From the IMG/VR virus record IMGVR_UViG_3300042891_001399: a DNA stretch of 64,000 nt; one strand, 5' to 3'. Positions 3,760-42,840 of this stretch are shown here, piece after piece (the stretch's first letter is position 1; each line of letters begins with the position of its first letter). The position numbers and the translations under genes are program-made. A model generated the notes under the pieces. That model saw nothing but the letters and a program-made list of their open reading frames with translations. It was not told where the DNA came from and ran no database searches. Source of the DNA: an uncultured virus (IMG/VR IMGVR_UViG_3300042891_001399). Taxonomy: Duplodnaviria > Heunggongvirae > Uroviricota > Caudoviricetes.

Positions 3760-4282
3760 TTAAAATATTGTCTAAATTGTTATCTCTTAAAACTCCAGAC
3801 TCTCTCATTAGTTCAGTCCAAATTTCATTGAAGTTATCAGCATTTATTTCTTTAAGCTTTTGTATAAGAATTGGTTTAAGCTCATCAAATAGTTTTTCGT
3901 CTTTATAATTAGTTCTAAGTTTATAACCATAGTTAATACTAAAACCTAAACCTTTATGTAAGGACATTTCAACATAATTTTCTTCACTATAAAGAATATT
4001 AGAACTTCTTTTTATAGGTGTCTTAACTTTAGTTATATCACCGACACTTACAGAAATTCTACTATCATCAACATTAATATTAATATTATTTTTATAAGTA
4101 GCCAAATTCAAAATCATTTTTTTGAATTTCTCACTAACCTCCGAATCATACTCTGACCAATCACCACCTGATATTTCTTCAGACATCTTCGTTGGTCTGG
4201 ATTCTATCTCGTAGTTTCTAAACTCCTCGTGTATGAGTTTAGCCATTTTTTTAATTTTCTTAGACTTCATATAAAGAATCAA
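3752..4282 (-). CDS. hypothetical protein (C-terminal RDNNLDNIL)
   Basis: ORF in operon. Confidence 0.65.
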   Translation of the reverse strand: MILYMKSKKIKKMAKLIHEEFRNYEIESRPTKMSEEISGGDWSEYDSEVSEKFKKMILNLATYKNNININVDDSRISVSVGDITKVKTPIKRSSNILYSEENYVEMSLHKGLGFSINYGYKLRTNYKDEKLFDELKPILIQKLKEINADNFNEIWTELMRESGVLRDNNLDNILNG

Positions 4283-11414: not shown

Positions 11415-11633
11415 ATGAAACTTGACTTACACGGTATCAAACATGAAGATGTACCTAGGAAACTAGATGTTTTCTTTTGGGATATGATGAAGTCTGATAA
11501 ACATCAAGTAGAAGTAGTTACCGGTATAAGTTCAAGAATGAAAGAGATAGTTATTGATAATTGTAAAGACTATGGCTTTATTGTAAATGAAATGTATTTT
11601 AATCCAGGAAGCTTAATAATAAATTTAATTTAA
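11415..11633 (+). CDS. stand-alone Smr (MutS2-C-like) domain protein
   Basis: LDLHG, VVTG, NPG motifs. Confidence 0.75.
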   Translation: MKLDLHGIKHEDVPRKLDVFFWDMMKSDKHQVEVVTGISSRMKEIVIDNCKDYGFIVNEMYFNPGSLIINLI

Positions 11634-11639
11634 AATATA

Positions 11640-11671
11640 TTTGGGGAAGTAAAACTTTTGATATATATTTG
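11640..11671 (+). promoter_or_regulatory. Bacteroidota-type sigma-70 promoter (-33 TTTG / -7 TAnnTTTG)
   Basis: TTTG 11640-43, 20-nt spacer, TATATTTG 11664-71. Confidence 0.75.
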
Positions 11672-11691
11672 TAGTATAATAATTCAAGACA

Positions 11692-11736
11692 ATGATGTAG
11701 ATTAACACATATAAAATTTTAGGAAGACCTCCATAA
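11692..11736 (+). CDS. putative leader peptide MM*INTYKILGRPP with in-frame amber at codon 3
   Basis: ATG ATG TAG ATT AAC ... AGA CCT CCA TAA. Confidence 0.6.
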
Positions 11737-11803
11737 TAGAACTCTGACCGACCAGCTAAATTGGCACTCGGTTAGAAGACTATGATGGAGGTATTTTCAT
11801 TTT
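11723..11803 (+). promoter_or_regulatory. attenuator/terminator-like long hairpin overlapping the leader-peptide stop
   Basis: acctccat/atggaggt, atag/ctat, tctgaccga/tcggttaga, followed by attttcatttt. Confidence 0.65.
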
Positions 11804-11828
11804 AAACAAAAAATAAAAAAAAACAATT

Positions 11829-12188
11829 ATGAACAACTAGATTAACGAAACAAAATTAATTATCATCACACGAAGTGATATCACAAACGGCTACCAAGTA
11901 GTACAATCAACACATTCAATTGCTGACTTCGCTTTTGAATTTCCAGAAACATTTTCTAAATGGAAATCTGAATCAAATTCTATCATCTGTTTATCAGTTA
12001 AAAACGAATTTGAACTCAAAAAACTTTATCATAAGTATAAAGACCTAACTGATTCAGTTATGTTTTTTGAACCTGATGTAAATCAGTTTACCTCTTTATG
12101 CCTATATGGTACTCCTAAAACCCGTAAAAGCCTTTCTCACTTACCATTGGCTCTAAAAAATAAAACTACAGAAAATGAAACTATTTAA
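11829..12188 (+). CDS. PTH2-like peptidyl-tRNA hydrolase with in-frame TAG at codon 4 (absent from ORF track)
   Basis: MNN*INETKLIIITRSDITNGYQVVQSTHSIADF...SIICLSVKNEFEL...FFEPD...TSLCLYG...LSHLPL; no other stop in 119 codons. Confidence 0.75.
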
Positions 12189-12873
12189 TTTATTCAAAAA
12201 GAAAAAAGCTACACCAGTAGCACCAGTTAAAAATCACTTTAATAGTGAGACTATGACTTATACAATAAACAATAAAGAATATGCTATTTCTGATAGTCAA
12301 CTAATTAAAATTCAAGCCGTTGCTGAAGATGTCCATTTATATGGTTGGTCGCTTGAAGTTAGATGGAAAGACACAAAAGGCGAATGGTATAGTTGGATGA
12401 CCTATTGGAATCATCGTATCTACACAAGTAGGTCGTCTGCTTTAGATGCTGCAACTAAAGTATATCCAAGTTATCATGATGGATATGAGTGGAGAATTTT
12501 ACCTATTTATAAAATGACTGAACCAGAATATAGAGAATATAAAATTGACCAGTTGTTGATGCCAAATAGAGCAAATAAAGAACCAAAAATTTATGAGATT
12601 AAAGCTTGGAAAGTAAAAGAAGATTGTGAGATAAAATATGAAAGAAATAACATGACTTACAAATATTCAAAGAGTACTTTGTTTATTCAAATGGAAGATG
12701 GTAATATTAGATTAGTTAAAAATTCAACCGAATCTAATAGTATTATCTACTCACATGCTAGAATGATACTAGATGATCTTATTAAAAATGAACAAGTAGA
12801 AGAAGTAAATATCAAAAATGAAAAGTGGGCTCATCCGCACTTATGTAAAGAATTAAAACGTAAAATAAAATAA
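12175..12873 (+). CDS. hypothetical protein
   Basis: ORF overlapping PTH2-like gene end by 14 nt. Confidence 0.7.
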   Translation: MKLFNLFKKKKATPVAPVKNHFNSETMTYTINNKEYAISDSQLIKIQAVAEDVHLYGWSLEVRWKDTKGEWYSWMTYWNHRIYTSRSSALDAATKVYPSYHDGYEWRILPIYKMTEPEYREYKIDQLLMPNRANKEPKIYEIKAWKVKEDCEIKYERNNMTYKYSKSTLFIQMEDGNIRLVKNSTESNSIIYSHARMILDDLIKNEQVEEVNIKNEKWAHPHLCKELKRKIK

Positions 12874-12875
12874 TT

Positions 12876-13463
12876 ATGATGTAGATTACAAAACAAGAAT
12901 TAATTCAGAAAATGTCTGAATGTGAACAGACCAAAGGTCAGTCTGTTTTAGAACACGGTACTTCAGTTAAAAACTACTTATTTGATTTAATTAATCATTT
13001 AAGAAGTAACACACCATTACAATATGAATGGAAATTACCTGATTGGGTTCTAGAAAATAAAGACCTTCTTTTATCATCCCTACCAGATGATGAGACTTTA
13101 GAATTATACACAATCTATCACGATTGTGGTAAACCTTTTTGTTTAGAAATAGACGAGAATGGTAAAAGACACTTCCCAAATCATGCGGAAGTTTCTTATC
13201 AAATTTTTAACCAAGTATTTAATAACTCAGTTGCTGCTGATTTAATACTACACGATATGGATATTCATTTATTGAAGTCTGATGGTGTTGTAGAATTCTG
13301 TCAGAACCCTCACGCCTTAACTTTATTGTTAACGGGTTTAGCCGAGTTACATTCAAATTCTCAAATGTTCGGTGGTCTTGATTCAACCTCTTTCAAGATT
13401 AAATGGAAATGTATTAACCAAAGAGGTAAACAAATTATTAATCAATTAAAAAATAAAAACTAA
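12876..13463 (+). CDS. HD-domain phosphohydrolase with in-frame TAG at codon 3 (ORF track start 12912)
   Basis: H..YHDCGKP..HFPNHA..HDM motifs; ATG ATG TAG ATT ACA AAA CAA GAA TTA ATT CAG AAA ATG in frame, 2 nt after the upstream stop. Confidence 0.75.
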
Positions 13464-13467
13464 TATT

Positions 13468-13848
13468 ATGAAAACAACAGAACAAATTAAACAAGAAATC
13501 GTTAACTATTTAACAAAAACATCTCAACACACTTTTGTGAAACCAAAATCAACTTACAAATGGAGTCAAACAGGACCTCAATATGAGTATGACTACAATG
13601 AGTTTACCTACTTCAAAGTTATAAAAATTGAAGATGAATTCTTCAAACTTGAAAATGGTAATGGTCAAAATACACCAATAACTTACAAGTTAACTAAAAT
13701 TGATATTGATAACTATATCAAATACAACGGTAACAACTCTAAATGTGTTCTTAGTAATTGGCTCTTCTTAGATAAGAAAATGAAAAGTGTTAAAAGTAAC
13801 AAGTATCATTTGGGAGAAATTGAGAATATACTTGAGAGTATTAAGTAA
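13468..13848 (+). CDS. hypothetical protein
   Basis: Last ORF of the operon before a terminator. Confidence 0.7.
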   Translation: MKTTEQIKQEIVNYLTKTSQHTFVKPKSTYKWSQTGPQYEYDYNEFTYFKVIKIEDEFFKLENGNGQNTPITYKLTKIDIDNYIKYNGNNSKCVLSNWLFLDKKMKSVKSNKYHLGEIENILESIK

Positions 13849-13878
13849 AAAGAAACCCACCTAATTGGTGGGTTTTTT
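13849..13878. terminator. bidirectional intrinsic terminator
   Basis: aaacccacc-taatt-ggtgggtttttt between convergent genes. Confidence 0.8.
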
Positions 13879-22283: not shown

Positions 22284-22356
22284 GGTCGGTTCGTCTACTG
22301 GATAGGACGGGTTTCTTTTCAGAAATCAAACAAAGGTTCGAATCCTTTACCGACTA
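22284..22356 (+). tRNA. tRNA-Glu-like with 8-nt anticodon loop (CUUUUCAG)
   Basis: Acceptor ggtcggt/accgact, D arm gtct..aggac, stem ggttt/aaatc, T arm aaagg-ttcgaat-ccttt. Confidence 0.85.
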
Positions 22357-22363
22357 CAAATAT

Positions 22364-22523
22364 GGCCCGTTCGTCTACTGGACTCGCAAGAGAAACAGAC
22401 GGTCAACAAAACGACTCCAAGGTGGGTTATGAGAAGGTGCCAATCCTCTCAAGTCGTGACCTGATGTTTAGGACGTCTAACTTTTCGGTTAGAAAACAGA
22501 GTGTTCGAATCCTCTACGGGCTA
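22364..22523 (+). tRNA. tRNA-Glu-like with 86-nt D-loop insertion and 8-nt anticodon loop (CUUUUCGG)
   Basis: Acceptor ggcccgt/acgggct, stem tctaa/ttaga, T loop ttcgaat; insert 22383-22468. Confidence 0.7.
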
Positions 22524-22531
22524 CTAAAAAT

Positions 22532-22674: not shown

Positions 22675-23535
22675 TTACATACGGAAACACTAACTTAGGT
22701 TAGTATGGAAGTAACGGCCGCTTATAGTCGTAAAATAAACCTTGAAAGGGGGATAAAGTGAACACAACTGCGAATTGTGTTTGCGTCTTGGGTAACCGAG
22801 GTCGAGTAAGCAAGCAGGATATCACTAAGCCTGAAGTACCGAGGGTAACTCCGTAGGGAAATGGATTGGTGACTGGGCAAGTGTAGATTGTTCAGTTGAG
22901 TTCGGAAGAGCAATAAGAATAACCTGTAGAAATTTTGCGAGAAGTGGTGACCAACCAGTTATCATCATCGCGAGTTTCAACTTGAGAGGTGTCTCAAAGT
23001 CGAAAGACAATTCATTGTACAGGTGGTGCTGTTGATGAACATCAATCACTCTACCAAGAGTGTAGATGAGCCGCAAGGTGAGTCGTGATGAAGATATCTT
23101 AAAGAGTTGTGATGGAGGCATCACACGGAGAAGTCCAGTATTCTTGAGGCCAAAAGCTTTGGGAGCTGAGAGGTGACCACTTCTTCGACACAATCTACAA
23201 GCACTAAAATTTACTTTTGAATGTAAAAACTTAAAACTAAATCGAAAGTGTTACCTAGTTACTGATAGAAAGGTGACTACTTAGTTATGGGATGTCCATA
23301 GCCACATAAGCTCGAAAGGCGGATGTGATTTCATCGAAAAACTTATAGGGCCTCGAAACCCGAATCAGCCTGCGAGGGTTGAGTAAGCAGAGTAAGTGGA
23401 GAGTATTCAGTAACTCAAGAAGTGGTTAGTCTAACTAACCGTCACTGTGACAATACCATTCAAAAGATGGTGGATAAAACTGGGAAACAATAATCCAGTC
23501 AAAGATGTCACACTGAACGTGTAATCTCAGCGTTT
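22675..23535 (+). ncRNA. large (~870 nt) structured ncRNA, GOLLD-like candidate
   Basis: GC-enriched, many tetraloop hairpins (gtc-gaaa-gac, cctt-gaaa-gggg, gcc-gcaa-ggt), directly downstream of tRNAs, ends at a terminator; family assigned by size and context only. Confidence 0.6.
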
Positions 23536-40689: not shown

Positions 40690-42840
40690 TTATGCTATAG
40701 TAGCAGTTCCTAATGTAGTAACTTTATTCGCTGGATATATTTTAAATGTGACAGTCCAGTAACCATCAGATGAAATAACAGATAATGGTGTTGTTGGTGC
40801 TGCAAATAAGTCAGTTACACCACCAATATTACCGTTATTAAGAGCATTTTCATACCAAGTTGATTTAGTAGGATAAACACTATAAACAGCAAACCAGGGC
40901 CACTCACCAGTTGCACTAAAGTTCATACTTAAACTACCAGCACCATTATTTACAACTTTTGTAAATCCTGTTCCTGATTGAATGATAGTAACAATATCAG
41001 AAGCCGACTTCTGTGTAGATGTTTTACCATAGAAGTAAGGATAGTATCCGGTAATAGTTTGACCATTTGAAGCAAAGTTAGTATCAGATGCTTGTGGTGA
41101 TAAAGTACTTCTAACAGCAGGAGATGCACTATGAGTAACGCCTTTATTATTTTTCTTAGCTAAACCAGCTGTATAATTACCAAGTCCTGAATAAGCAACT
41201 GTACTACTTCCACCTGAAGCAGGAGCAGGTACAACTAAACCAGAATCTGTTGTTGATATAGCATATGAGAAGTTAGGGTTATTAGGATCAACATATCCAA
41301 ATTGACTAGCAATTGCAGAAGCTGATGTTACAGTCATACTACTTGTTGCAGATACGGTAAGTAATGTTGATGAACCACCACCATTCACTGATTTTTGAAT
41401 TACTAATTGTGAGAAATAGTTAGCATCATTTTCAATACCTGTTAATGTAATAGCAGGTGATATAGTTTCACCTACTTCTTTAATACCAGTTATTGTAGAA
41501 GATAATCCTATTGTAGGTATAGTATATGTCGGAGTTACAGTAGGGAATAATAAGTCATCAAATAGTTGAACAAGGTTTAATCCAGATAAAGTTCCAGCTG
41601 TTGTTCCTGATGCAATACCACCAACTGTATTAGGCATTGCTAAAGATGGATCTAAAGCTGTATTATAAGTAGTATCTATTGTACTATTGGTAGAACCATA
41701 TGATATACTAATACCACTATTTGGATCAGTTATAACACCAGCGGGTGAACCACTAACACCTGATGTACCTGATGAGCCAGAAGTTCCTGATGAGCCAGAA
41801 GTTCCTGATGAACCAGTAGATCCATTAATACCCGAAGTACCGGAGATACCATCTAAACCATTAACACCTGAAGTCCCTGATGTGCCACTTGAACCTGAAG
41901 TTCCACTTGTACCGGAATATCCTGATATACCGCTTGTACCGGAAGATCCTGAAGTTCCACTTGTACCGGAAGATCCTGATGTACCGCTTGTACCGGAAGA
42001 TCCTGATGTACCGCTTGTACCGGAAGATCCTGAAGTTCCACTTGTGCCGGAAGATCCTGAAGTTCCACTTGTGCCGGAAGATCCTGAAGTTCCACTTGTG
42101 CCGGAAGATCCTGAAGTTCCACTTGTACCGGAAGATCCTGAAGTACCAGCAGAGCCACCACTACCACTGCTACTAAATGTATAATTATTTAATCTTTGAC
42201 CTACATATTGCCAAGCTATAACTCTTGGTCCACCAGTTGATGTATTTTGAATATAAGCTTGTTTTGATCCATCAGCTGTAAGCTCAAAAGTAGACTTGTT
42301 AAATACAAAACCTAATCCATTACCACTATCTTTTGGTGTAAAACCAACATCAAATCTAATTAAACCTGAAAAGTAATCTACATCATAAAAAGCACTACCA
42401 TAAGATATAGAAGTTGTGCCATCATTTCTAAACATTTGAAGTTCATATCCAAAAGAAGGAGCACCTGCGCTATTTGGAACATCGGATGGATTTATTAGTG
42501 ACTTTACCCAGTCAACTGAAGGAATAAAACCATCAGCCGCAGGTTGTGGAGTTCCTGTATCAATAAACCAAGTTTGATAATTTGTATTTGTTAGGGGATA
42601 TAAATAAGAAGGATTAGAAGAAGTGCCTATTTGTTTAACTATAGTACCATCAGCATATTGAGAAGCAGAAGCAGAAGTAGGCGCATAGGATATTGAATCC
42701 ATCCAAACTTCATTAGATCTGACGTTGTGCGCACTCTTATACTTTTCATTACCAACTAAAAAAGTTGACTCTGTTAATACTTTACCAAGTGAATGGTAAA
42801 AAGCTGCATTTATTTTGCTATTTTGAATACTATTTGGCAT
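40690..42840 (-). CDS. collagen-like repeat structural protein
   Basis: (GTSGSSGTS)n block; S/T-rich beta domains. Confidence 0.7.
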   Translation of the reverse strand: MPNSIQNSKINAAFYHSLGKVLTESTFLVGNEKYKSAHNVRSNEVWMDSISYAPTSASASQYADGTIVKQIGTSSNPSYLYPLTNTNYQTWFIDTGTPQPAADGFIPSVDWVKSLINPSDVPNSAGAPSFGYELQMFRNDGTTSISYGSAFYDVDYFSGLIRFDVGFTPKDSGNGLGFVFNKSTFELTADGSKQAYIQNTSTGGPRVIAWQYVGQRLNNYTFSSSGSGGSAGTSGSSGTSGTSGSSGTSGTSGSSGTSGTSGSSGTSGTSGSSGTSGTSGSSGTSGTSGSSGTSGTSGSSGTSGISGYSGTSGTSGSSGTSGTSGVNGLDGISGTSGINGSTGSSGTSGSSGTSGSSGTSGVSGSPAGVITDPNSGISISYGSTNSTIDTTYNTALDPSLAMPNTVGGIASGTTAGTLSGLNLVQLFDDLLFPTVTPTYTIPTIGLSSTITGIKEVGETISPAITLTGIENDANYFSQLVIQKSVNGGGSSTLLTVSATSSMTVTSASAIASQFGYVDPNNPNFSYAISTTDSGLVVPAPASGGSSTVAYSGLGNYTAGLAKKNNKGVTHSASPAVRSTLSPQASDTNFASNGQTITGYYPYFYGKTSTQKSASDIVTIIQSGTGFTKVVNNGAGSLSMNFSATGEWPWFAVYSVYPTKSTWYENALNNGNIGGVTDLFAAPTTPLSVISSDGYWTVTFKIYPANKVTTLGTATIA
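41745..42170 (-). repeat. 27-nt coding tandem repeat (GTSGSSGTS)n
   Basis: Near-perfect units ccggaagatcctgaagttccacttgt[a/g]. Confidence 0.9.

What the first reader, a model, noticed from the sequence alone, without database searches (positions are those of the whole stretch)
11692..13463. Amber-gated operon: three ORFs in one transcription unit start ATG-(1-2 codons)-TAG-ATT-A
Seen: ATG ATG TAG ATT AAC (11692), ATG AAC AAC TAG ATT AAC (11829) and ATG ATG TAG ATT ACA (12876). In each case the frame continues after the TAG, into a leader peptide, a PTH2-like hydrolase and an HD-domain protein. Long ORFs elsewhere in the window are intact under code 11 and TAG ends genes normally (e.g. 1210, 8754, 50836), so this is not genome-wide recoding. 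Three copies of the same TAGATTA context at codon 3-4 are unlikely to be random nonsense mutations. Inference: expression needs UAG readthrough, so the operon switches on when RF1 termination fails or an amber suppressor tRNA is present (for example from a co-infecting recoded phage or a host defence), much as prfB senses RF2. Alternatives: re-initiation at the AUU codon (IF3-sensitive, as in infC), or AUG-AUG-UAG minigenes that shed peptidyl-tRNA like lambda bar minigenes, which are Pth substrates. I know of no description of such a system.
Basis: partly seen in the sequence, partly recalled or inferred. Interest (0 to 1): 0.95.

Follow-up and report, generated by a model that had tools for sequence, protein, structure and literature searches.

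The report
Amber-gated tRNA-repair operon in jumbo phages
Two phage genes for tRNA-end enzymes, and a short leader in front of them, each carry a deliberate UAG stop codon a few codons after the start, conserved across very different giant phages that also carry a UAG-reading tRNA, so the operon is probably made only when that tRNA is active.

Summary
ATG-(1-2 codons)-TAG-ATT opens a leader ORF (11692), a Pth2-like gene (11829) and an HD gene (12876), in one promoter-to-terminator unit.

It is not error, chance or genome-wide recoding. Contigs from two other studies carry the same TAGs. The window and a 385-kb relative otherwise use TAG as a stop.

The TAG is a family trait. 29 of 29 Pth2-like genes and 27 of 33 HD genes examined have an in-frame TAG, usually at codon 3-4. 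That is 34 of 34 modules. They span 39-93% identity and include 8 of 8 cultured jumbo phages examined (GAP32, XacN1, RsoM2USA, pT24, ME3 and others).

The codon after TAG is often not a start codon, which rejects AUU re-initiation.

A tRNA(CUA) gene was found in 23 of these genomes, often within 1 kb of the operon. Four more have a non-canonical CUA tRNA-like gene.

Best reading: the phage's own amber suppressor gates translation. In this clade a leader-peptide attenuator adds a second gate. The enzymes are a Pth2-fold hydrolase and a stand-alone CCA-enzyme-type HD domain.

I found no description in print. The XacN1 authors reported finding no targets for their suppressor tRNAs.

The parts
11640..11671 (+). 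Promoter-like element: TTTG (11640-11643), a 20-nt spacer, then TATATTTG (11664-11671). This matches the Bacteroidota -33 TTTG / -7 TAnnTTTG consensus, which I recall and did not test.
   Evidence: The sequence is. The block is conserved in relatives L001, L003 and L005. The same TAnnTTTG motif precedes the tRNA-like CUA genes of W01, W02 and L007. The sigma-70 scan does not cover this promoter type.
11692..11736 (+). Leader ORF: ATG ATG TAG(11698-11700), then ATT...CCT CCA TAA. It encodes M-M-[UAG]-INTYKILGRPP-stop.
   Evidence: It is conserved in 6 of 6 close relatives compared (window, L001, L002, L003, L005, L006). Five of the 6 end in Pro-Pro-stop; L003 reads on into the hairpin.
11722..11812 (+). 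Attenuator/terminator-like hairpin (11722-11798) followed by a U-rich tract. The last four leader codons and the leader stop form its 5' arm.
   Evidence: MFE -35.6 kcal/mol, z -6.0, and 0 of 200 shuffles fold as well. All 6 relatives have a 77-116-nt hairpin of -26 to -38 kcal/mol. By the MFE fold it begins 8-24 nt after the TAG (20-24 nt in four of six; the short values come from small upstream helices drawn by the fold). All are followed by a T-run. The basal stem CCTCC.TAA/TTA.GGAGG is kept, and covariation is limited.
11829..12188 (+). Pth2-like gene: ATG AAC AAC TAG(11838-11840) ATT..., 115 codons after the TAG, stop TAA.
   Evidence: Pfam PTH2 E 3.5e-4, below the gathering score. A profile of 17 homologs against solved Pth2 gives E 6e-16. 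The AlphaFold model has pLDDT 92.1 and matches archaeal Pth2 and human Bit1 at Foldseek E 1e-6, TM 0.67-0.75. 29 of 29 homologs carry an in-frame TAG.
12175..12873 (+). 232-aa ORF of unknown function. It has an ordinary ATG that overlaps the end of the Pth2-like gene by 14 nt. It is present only in close relatives.
   Evidence: No Pfam, PHROG or NCBIfam match.
12876..13463 (+). HD-domain gene: ATG ATG TAG(12882-12884) ATT ACA..., 192 codons after the TAG.
   Evidence: Pfam HD E 9e-5; phrog_14850 E 7e-65. The model has pLDDT 96.3. Its best structural match is 3wfo_A residues 250-447, Z 14.3, rmsd 3.2, 160 aligned, with profile E 2e-4. Bacterial CCA-type nucleotidyltransferases share the motif LHDCGKP. 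27 of 33 homologs carry an in-frame TAG.
13468..13848 (+). 126-aa ORF of unknown function; last gene of the unit.
13850..13878 (+). Intrinsic terminator closing the unit.
   Evidence: 12-bp stem with 5 G-C pairs, followed by a T-run.

Best explanation
The unit 11640-13878 is an amber-gated operon of a giant, probably Bacteroidota-infecting, lake-water phage that otherwise uses the standard code.

Translation of the Pth2-like hydrolase and the HD protein starts at a normal ATG. It meets UAG at codon 3-4 and continues only if a suppressor tRNA with anticodon CUA decodes that UAG. Otherwise a 2-3-residue peptide is released.

The suppressor is phage-encoded in relatives. In the window's own genome it lies outside the 64 kb seen.

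In this clade a third copy of the gate sits in a leader ORF. If UAG is read, the ribosome runs to a Pro-Pro-stop that forms the 5' arm of a terminator-like hairpin. That should keep the hairpin open, so transcription continues into the operon. If translation ends at UAG, the hairpin forms. Expression is then gated at both transcription and translation by suppressor activity set against RF1.

The products are a Pth2-fold (peptidyl/aminoacyl)-tRNA ester hydrolase and a stand-alone copy of the HD domain of CCA-adding enzymes. Both are therefore tRNA 3'-end enzymes.

Shown here: the sequence features, their conservation, the co-occurrence with tRNA(CUA), and the folds.

Inferred: that the tRNA decodes these UAGs, that the hairpin terminates transcription, the enzyme substrates, and the biological purpose. 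My guess for the purpose is thresholded or delayed expression, or feedback on the suppressor tRNA.
For: (1) Conservation.
- The TAG lies in frame, preceded by ATG (GTG in L022; L020 reads GTG-CGT-TAG followed directly by ATG), in 28 of 29 Pth2-like genes at the N-terminus and in 1 (L012) internally.
- 27 of 33 HD genes have it: 24 N-terminal and 3 internal.
- Every one of 34 modules has at least one.
- The homologs span 39-93% identity and 29-45% GC. L013, L023, L025, L207, RsoM2USA and Xoo-sp13 have Shine-Dalgarno-like purine runs before the ATG.
- Flanking substitutions in W01 are synonymous third-position changes: AAC to AAT on both sides of the TAG.

(2) Position and context. Of 49 N-terminal gates tabulated, TAG is codon 3 in 29 and codon 4 in 15. 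The next base is A in 43, G in 6 and a pyrimidine in 0. By contrast, T follows 102 of 215 genuine TAG stops of long ORFs in four relatives.

(3) The region after TAG is coding. Residues 1-10 of the HD model have pLDDT 97 and form a helix. Strand 1 of the Pth2 fold is residues 5-11. HD homologs without a TAG start at an ATG 9-18 codons upstream of the invariant Met10.

(4) A decoder is present.
- ARAGORN finds tRNA(CUA) in G001, G002, G003, G008, G010-G013, G016-G018, G020, G021, L022, L206 and L207, and in 8 of 8 cultured phages examined.
- In L013, L014, L018, L019, L020, L022, L023, L025, L207, ME3 and Arash it lies under 1 kb from the gated genes.
- In L007 and L009 a CUA tRNA-like gene lies between the promoter and the Pth2-like gate.

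(5) The gate is specific. Genome-wide scans of G001, W01, W02 and G002 find start-like ATG-x-TAG gates only at these genes. G001 is not recoded: TAG ends 28 of 295 long ORFs, and in-frame neighbours separated by a TAG look like ordinary gene boundaries.

(6) The leader, the hairpin and their geometry are conserved.

(7) The TAGs are present in independent assemblies.
Against: - No tRNA(CUA) lies in the window, and no whole genome is held for it.
- W01 and W02 have no canonical tRNA(CUA) by ARAGORN. They have only a non-canonical tRNA-like gene, which ARAGORN calls in W01 only under relaxed settings and misses in W02. For L007 and L009, Rfam's tRNA model misses the tRNA-like gene at E <= 1.
- No tRNA(CUA) was found in the partial contigs of L003, L005, L011, L016 and L017 with one pattern search.
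- There is no expression, proteomic or readthrough measurement. The amino acid inserted is unknown.
- The attenuator hairpin shows little covariation. The tool's terminator scan did not call it, because its loop rule is 3-8 nt. The U-tract partly pairs with the A-rich 5' flank in the MFE fold.
- Six HD genes carry no TAG, so the gate is not obligatory for that protein.
- If the tRNA and the gated genes are co-transcribed, as in L007 and L009, a simple timer is less obvious.
- I measured no background rate of tRNA(CUA) in jumbo phages that lack the module, so the co-occurrence is not controlled.
Confidence: 0.75

Rival explanations
1. Sensor of foreign or pathological suppression. The operon stays silent unless RF1 fails or a suppressor tRNA arrives from a co-infecting recoded phage or a host response.
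For: The gates would respond to any UAG decoder. No tRNA(CUA) lies in the window. The Borges preprint (passages read) raises the idea of sensing co-infecting phages through suppressor tRNAs.
Against: Relatives carry their own tRNA(CUA), often adjacent to or co-oriented with the operon. All near-complete genomes with the module have either a canonical tRNA(CUA) or the CUA tRNA-like gene.
Confidence: 0.07
2. Throttle without a dedicated decoder. The early UAG is read at low frequency by near-cognate host tRNAs, which only keeps the two enzymes at very low levels. The linkage to tRNA(CUA) would be incidental.
For: A purine after UAG and an early position could favour leaky termination (recalled context effects, not tested). 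W01 and W02 lack a canonical tRNA(CUA).
Against: All 49 tabulated gates, and those found later (L003 HD, L206, L207), use TAG and never TGA or TAA. tRNA(CUA) was found in 23 of the genomes or contigs that carry the module, frequently within 1 kb. A weak start codon could throttle expression more simply.
Confidence: 0.1
3. Start-stop mini-ORF with re-initiation. ATG-x-TAG is a tiny upstream ORF, and the real protein starts at the adjacent AUU (as in infC) or at a downstream ATG such as 12912.
For: In the window's clade the next codon is always ATT. Met10 of the HD protein is invariant.
Against: The next codon is GCT, GCA, ACC, ACT, AAC, GTT or GTA in 13 of 49 gates. The Pth2-like frame has no ATG for 73 codons. 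TAGs are internal in GAP32, G003 and L208 HD genes and in the L012 Pth2-like gene. The residues between TAG and Met10 are conserved, modelled as a helix at pLDDT 97, and encoded after an ordinary ATG in homologs without a TAG.
Confidence: 0.05
4. Ordinary genome-wide TAG reassignment (code 15), a pseudogene, or an assembly error.
For: Some giant phages reassign TAG (Borges preprint, passages read).
Against: TAG ends genes in the window and ends 28 of 295 long ORFs in G001. No other gated genes were found. The same TAGs appear in independent runs, and 34 of 34 modules conserve a TAG.
Confidence: 0.02

Closest known systems
Stop-codon recoding as a translational regulator of late or lytic genes in phages (Borges et al., preprint 10.1101/2021.08.26.457843; passages read)
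   Same: A phage-encoded suppressor tRNA lets in-frame stop codons be read in a standard-code host. In-frame stops keep a gene set silent until the decoder is present. Some standard-code relatives carry suppressor tRNAs.
   Different: Here the genome is not recoded. One TAG sits at codon 3-4 of two specific tRNA-enzyme genes (plus a leader). It is kept over deep divergence and across host phyla, and it is physically linked to the tRNA gene. The targets are not structural or lysis genes.
prfB (RF2) autoregulation (recalled)
   Same: An in-frame stop codon early in an ORF reports the activity of the termination or decoding machinery and sets expression of a translation factor.
   Different: prfB uses UGA at codon 26 and a +1 frameshift. 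Here the frame is unchanged, and readthrough by a tRNA is inferred.
Synthetic suppressor-tRNA feed-forward 'leak dampener' (PMC7969014; listing and abstract only)
   Same: One input drives both an amber suppressor tRNA and an amber-containing target gene. This gives AND-gate behaviour and low leak. L007 and L009 appear to place the tRNA-like gene and the gated genes behind one promoter.
   Different: That system is engineered, whereas this one is natural and conserved. Co-transcription here is inferred from sequence only.
Leader-peptide transcription attenuation of the pyrBI/trp type (recalled)
   Same: A short leader ORF overlaps a terminator hairpin, and the position of the ribosome decides whether the hairpin forms.
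   Different: The sensed event would be decoding of UAG at codon 3, not supply of an amino acid or UTP. No alternative antiterminator helix was identified.
Lambda bar minigenes (recalled)
   Same: A two- to three-codon ORF ending in a stop; there is a link to peptidyl-tRNA and Pth.
   Different: Bar minigenes are not followed in frame by conserved coding sequence. Whether peptidyl-tRNA drop-off occurs at these gates was not tested.
Archaeal/eukaryotic Pth2 and the C-terminal HD domain of class II CCA-adding enzymes
   Same: Folds and sequence profiles match.
   Different: Both are stand-alone phage proteins. They are fused to each other in either order in L019, pT24, XacN1, Xoo-sp13 and RAS14. 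Their substrates are unknown.

Membership tests
Suppressor-tRNA-dependent (programmed readthrough) gene | In-frame stop codon conserved in homologs | tested here: met
   29 of 29 Pth2-like and 27 of 33 HD genes.
Suppressor-tRNA-dependent (programmed readthrough) gene | Sequence downstream of the stop is coding and in frame with the start | tested here: met
   Confident folds that include the first residues; profile matches; homologs without a TAG carry the same N-terminus.
Suppressor-tRNA-dependent (programmed readthrough) gene | A cognate decoder, tRNA(CUA), in the same genome | tested here: inconclusive
   Met in relatives: 23 genomes or contigs, 8 of 8 cultured phages examined. Not testable for the window's own genome. 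W01 and W02 have only a non-canonical candidate.
Suppressor-tRNA-dependent (programmed readthrough) gene | Full-length product with an amino acid at the stop position | not testable with these tools
   Needs proteomics or reporter assays.
Code-15 (TAG-recoded) phage | Many genes with in-frame TAG; TAG not used as a stop | tested here: not met
   Only the operon's ORFs carry the gate. TAG ends genes in the window and in G001.
Pth2 (PF01981) peptidyl-tRNA hydrolase | Sequence match at the family threshold | tested here: inconclusive
   The window protein scores 21.2 bits against a cut-off of 23 and is far below the NCBIfam cut-offs. A profile of 17 homologs hits solved Pth2 at E 6e-16. The gated proteins of L013, L014 and L016 look like canonical Pth2 by eye.
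Pth2 (PF01981) peptidyl-tRNA hydrolase | Pth2 fold | tested here: met
   Foldseek E 1e-6 to 5e-4, TM 0.6-0.75, to seven Pth2/Bit1 entries.
Pth2 (PF01981) peptidyl-tRNA hydrolase | Catalytic residues and hydrolase activity | not tested
   The invariant residues R11, D13, Q22, H25, S47 and P78 are listed but were not mapped onto known active sites.
HD-domain phosphohydrolase of the CCA-adding-enzyme type | H...HD...D metal-binding motif | tested here: met
   H24, H79, D80, H100, D124 and H128 are invariant in 18 sequences. Pfam HD scores 23.1 bits against a cut-off of 22.
HD-domain phosphohydrolase of the CCA-adding-enzyme type | Homology to the C-terminal half of class II tRNA nucleotidyltransferases | tested here: met
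   3wfo_A residues 250-447: Z 14.3 against 10.4 for the next entry; profile E 2e-4. Bacterial proteins that share LHDCGKP have PolyA_pol + HD + tRNA_NucTran2_2 domains.
Leader-peptide transcription attenuator | Conserved short ORF whose end overlaps a terminator hairpin followed by a U-tract | tested here: met
   6 of 6 close relatives. Covariation is weak.
Leader-peptide transcription attenuator | Termination in the absence of leader translation and readthrough in its presence | not testable with these tools
   Needs transcription assays.
infC-type AUU initiation | A near-cognate start codon conserved at the start of the ORF | tested here: not met
   35 of 49 gates have ATT, ATC or ATA after the TAG. 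The other 14 have GCT, GCA, ACC, ACT, AAC, AAT, GTT or GTA.

The most novel reading that the evidence does not exclude
The 'orphan' amber-suppressor tRNAs of standard-code jumbo phages belong to a self-contained, ancient translational circuit. The tRNA(CUA) is the key to an amber lock on a pair of tRNA 3'-end enzymes: a Pth2-like ester hydrolase and a CCA-enzyme-type HD phosphoesterase.

These enzymes either act back on the suppressor or on damaged tRNAs. That could be feedback control of decoding, or a thresholded tRNA-repair counter-defence against host toxins that modify tRNA 3' ends.

The circuit would be a natural AND-gate or feedback loop built from a stop codon. In this clade it carries an added leader-peptide attenuator that senses UAG decoding.
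Probability: 0.3. Interest if true: 0.9.

Novelty: new variant of a known kind. Interest (0 to 1): 0.82.

Why it matters
- It gives a concrete answer to a question left open in print: what the CUA suppressor tRNAs of standard-code jumbo phages read. The XacN1 authors read through 18 amber stops in silico and reported no targets (PMC5852040, passages read). XacN1 has ATG AAG TAG ACC at the start of its HD-Pth2 fusion gene. Such a search would miss this site, because the 'gene' before the stop is only two codons long.

- It shows that a single early stop codon can be a stable regulatory device that lasts across host phyla. It is not merely a transitional state on the way to recoding.

- It exposes systematic mis-annotation in GenBank. 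GAP32_397, 398 and 399, Arash gp84c and the XacN1 ORF364 start are truncated or split. The RsoM2USA Pth2-like gene is unannotated.

- The system is directly testable in cultured phages.

- It offers a natural amber-gate context (ATG-N3-6-UAG-AUU) and possibly new suppressor tRNA scaffolds for synthetic biology.

Tried and rejected
- Whole genome of the window: none is held, so the window's own decoder could not be sought.
- Motif enrichment of TAGATTA and ATGTAGATTA in the window: not above chance.
- The fourth ATGATGTAGATT at 42386 (minus strand): chance, with 5 open codons after it.
- Genome-wide TAG recoding: rejected.
- Quadruplet (UAGA) decoding or frameshifting: rejected on reading the sequence, because the downstream ORFs are in the triplet frame of the ATG.
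- Initiator-type tRNA(CUA) reading UAG as a start: rejected. An in-frame ATG is conserved upstream, some TAGs are internal, and the G001 and G003 tRNAs lack three G-C pairs at the bottom of the anticodon stem (the identity rule is recalled).
- Identity of the suppressor tRNAs by similarity to other phage tRNAs: no clear parent, with best identities 0.68-0.72 to several species.
- Rfam search on L007 and L009 for the non-canonical CUA tRNA-like gene: no tRNA hit at E <= 1. A MAFFT alignment of the four copies was out of register, so pairs were not counted formally.
- Complex prediction of HD with Pth2-like: no verdict (score 0.15, mark 0.32). Physical binding is therefore not claimed; the fusions are the only link.
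- W02 candidate third gate at 611279: no Pfam family and no homolog in the other genomes, so it is left open.
- The pattern hit in G005 (L172) is not a tRNA.
- RNA-library contigs (X15, X16) cover parts of the operon from roughly 92-95% relatives. They cannot show transcription, transcript ends or attenuation.
- Earlier-findings look-ups returned nothing.
- Literature: five searches found no description of amber-gated Pth2 or HD genes. The library lacks most subscription journals, and no supplements were opened.
Full report
**1. Observation**

- ATG ATG TAG ATT AAC at 11692
- ATG AAC AAC TAG ATT AAC at 11829
- ATG ATG TAG ATT ACA at 12876

The frames stay open for 11, 115 and 192 codons after the TAG. 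The 7-mer TAGATTA is not enriched (32 found against 27 expected). However, ATG, 1-2 codons, TAG-ATT and a long open frame occur together only here in the window.

Other genes start at an ATG within a few codons of the preceding stop. Several end in TAG, at 1210, 8754 and 50836. The Pth2-like frame has no ATG for 73 codons.

Contigs from two runs of other studies reproduce all three sites, with 0 differences over sites 1 and 2 and 0-1 over site 3. The window's phage occurs in lake-water metagenomes of about ten studies.

**2. The transcription unit**

Upstream of site 1 lie TTTG (11640), a 20-nt spacer and TATATTTG (11664). This is the Bacteroidota promoter pattern as I recall it. It is conserved in relatives.

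A strong intrinsic terminator closes the unit at 13850-13878. Between the two, all on the + strand, lie:
- the leader ORF;
- a long hairpin;
- the Pth2-like gene;
- a 232-aa ORF that overlaps the Pth2-like stop;
- the HD gene;
- a 126-aa ORF.

**3. The gate is a conserved family trait**

The nearest GenBank relative is LR745206.1 (W01, 634 kb, about 70% nucleotide identity). It keeps all three gates, with synonymous third-position changes on both sides of the Pth2 TAG.

A search of IMG/VR with the HD protein gave 21 loci at 39-93% identity. The Pth2-like protein gave 2. MAG contigs gave 3 full-length relatives. GenBank phages gave 29 records, of which I examined 8 cultured phages plus W01. I dropped the duplicate loci L004, L015 and L024.

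Counts:
- Pth2-like genes: 29 of 29 have an in-frame TAG. In 28 it is N-terminal, 1-7 codons after ATG (or after GTG in L022 and L020). In L012 it is internal.
- HD genes: 27 of 33 have one, 24 N-terminal and 3 internal (G003/L020 codon 51, GAP32 codon 47, L208). None is present in L010, L012, L013, L014, Arash or ME3.
- In each of those six, the neighbouring Pth2-like gene is gated. All 34 modules therefore carry at least one TAG.
- Of 49 N-terminal gates tabulated, TAG is codon 3 in 29 and codon 4 in 15. The next codon is ATT in 30. The next base is A in 43, G in 6 and never a pyrimidine.
- T follows 102 of 215 ordinary TAG stops in four relatives.

Several distant members have Shine-Dalgarno-like purine runs before the ATG, so the ATG is the start. 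The varied codon after the TAG and the internal TAGs exclude AUU re-initiation as the family mechanism.

**4. Not a recoded genome**

In G001 (385 kb, about 80% identical over the operon) only the two operon genes show start-like gates. TAG ends 28 of 295 long ORFs. TAG-separated in-frame neighbours are ordinary gene junctions. W01, W02 and G002 give the same picture.

**5. The decoder**

ARAGORN finds a well-formed tRNA(CUA) in G001, G002 and G003. A pattern search followed by ARAGORN finds one in 10 more IMG/VR contigs. It also appears in L022, L206 and L207 and in 8 of 8 cultured phages examined.

It is often next to the operon:
- about 200 nt upstream in G003;
- 80-170 nt after the HD gene in L018 and L022;
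- two copies right after HD in L023;
- 350-700 nt upstream in L013, L014, L025 and ME3.

W01 and W02 lack a canonical tRNA(CUA) but share a conserved tRNA-like gene. It has a UUCUAAC loop, an 8-bp acceptor stem with compensatory changes, a 5-6-bp extra hairpin and a 4-bp T-stem with a TTCGA loop. The same type sits between the promoter and the Pth2 gate in L007 and L009. Rfam's tRNA model does not recognise the L007 and L009 copies, so this part is my inference.

No decoder lies in the window, and its genome is not held.

**6. The leader**

Six close relatives keep M-(M/N)-UAG-I-x-T-Y-...; five of the six end in Pro-Pro-stop. A 77-116-nt hairpin of -26 to -38 kcal/mol begins a short way after the TAG. 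The MFE fold puts its start 20-24 nt after the TAG in four of six. It contains the leader's stop in its 5' arm and is followed by a T-run. The window's hairpin has z -6.0. The basal stem is kept, and covariation is weak.

A ribosome released at UAG would not reach the hairpin. One that reads through would sit on its 5' arm, at a Pro-Pro-stop. Such a site is a slow termination site by recalled knowledge.

I read this as a pyrBI-like attenuator whose input is UAG decoding. That reading is inferred.

**7. What the proteins are**

*Pth2-like protein.* The model has pLDDT 92.1. It matches archaeal Pth2 and human Bit1 at E 1e-6 and TM 0.67-0.75. The profile against solved Pth2 gives E 6e-16. The single sequence is just under Pfam's cut-off.

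*HD protein.* The model has pLDDT 96.3. Its best match is 3wfo_A residues 250-447 ('tRNA processing enzyme', deposited as 'Poly A polymerase'), at Z 14.3, with the next entry at 10.4. The profile E-value is 2e-4. Bacterial proteins that share LHDCGKP have PolyA_pol + HD + tRNA_NucTran2_2 domains.

The two proteins are fused in either order in L019, pT24, XacN1, Xoo-sp13 and RAS14. phrog_14850 models the fusion and has no assigned function. Both therefore point to the tRNA 3' end.

The purpose of the lock is not shown. My best guess is thresholded or delayed expression tied to suppressor activity. Alternatives are feedback on the suppressor tRNA, or tRNA 3'-end repair against host toxins (recalled biology, untested).

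**8. What is known**

Borges et al. (preprint, passages read) proposed stop-codon recoding as a regulator of late genes. They noted suppressor tRNAs in some standard-code relatives and did not mention these genes.

The XacN1 paper reports two CUA tRNAs and no identifiable targets. The RsoM2USA paper names no target. Both phages have the gate.

A synthetic suppressor-tRNA feed-forward circuit exists (PMC7969014, abstract only).

Five searches found no description of this module. The library is incomplete, and I opened no supplements.

**9. Verdict**

The finding is a new, conserved variant of suppressor-tRNA gating. It is testable in cultured phages. It explains orphan suppressor tRNAs and corrects several annotations.

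Noticed in passing
window 23126-23533 (+): A full-length GOLLD RNA (Rfam RF02032, 272 bits, E 1.7e-76) lies next to the tRNA genes. G001 has the matching region at 281951-282841.
   Followed up: no
window 22284-22357 and about 22364-22525 (+): Two odd tRNA-like genes. The first is called by ARAGORN with a two-base 'anticodon (tt)', scores 42.9 bits with Rfam tRNA, and has a loop reading CTTTTCAG. The second looks like a tRNA with a loop CTTTTCGG, interrupted by about 80 nt in the D-region. G001, W01, W02 and G002 also have ARAGORN 'tRNA-???' calls with 2- or 4-base anticodons.
   Followed up: partly
L071:7340-7422 (W01), L160:9680-9761 minus strand (W02), L007:1823-1905, L009:2508-2592: A non-canonical tRNA-like gene with a CUA anticodon loop. 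It has an 8-bp acceptor stem, a 7-8-nt linker ending in TAAT, a 5-6-bp hairpin in place of the D-arm, and a 4-bp T-stem. Rfam's tRNA model missed the L007 and L009 copies, and default ARAGORN missed the W01 and W02 copies. In W01 an ATG-started 190-codon ORF overlaps it. It may be a new suppressor tRNA architecture.
   Followed up: partly
window 11415-11633 (+): A 72-aa Smr-domain protein (Pfam E 1.7e-4, below the cut-off) lies directly upstream of the operon's promoter. It is also present in L005.
   Followed up: no
L189 (GAP32), L190 (XacN1), L191 (RsoM2USA), L194 (Arash), L195 (ME3): GenBank annotations are broken by the amber codon. GAP32_397 is a truncated Pth2-like gene, and GAP32_398/399 are two halves of the HD gene. 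XacN1 ORF364 starts at a downstream ATG. The RsoM2USA Pth2-like gene is unannotated, and the TAG before its HD gene is annotated as the stop of gene 92. Arash gp84c is a 51-aa 'peptidyl-tRNA hydrolase' fragment, and its tRNA at 3979-4050 is annotated Phe but ARAGORN reads the anticodon as CTA.
   Followed up: partly
L197:2623-3043 (XacN1): ARAGORN calls a tmRNA (tag ANANTFDYALAA) about 1 kb from the two CUA suppressor tRNA genes in the terminal repeat.
   Followed up: no
W02 611290-610590 minus strand (L160:10590-11290): A further possible gate: ATG AAA AAC AAT TAG ATT AAT, then 229 open codons. It lies about 830 nt upstream of W02's CUA tRNA-like gene. It has no Pfam family and no homolog in the other four genomes.
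   Followed up: partly
L020:3130-3144 (G003) and the window leader 11728-11736: Pro-Pro immediately before a stop recurs: CCT CCT TAG inside the G003 HD gene, and CCT CCA TAA at the end of the leaders.
   Followed up: no
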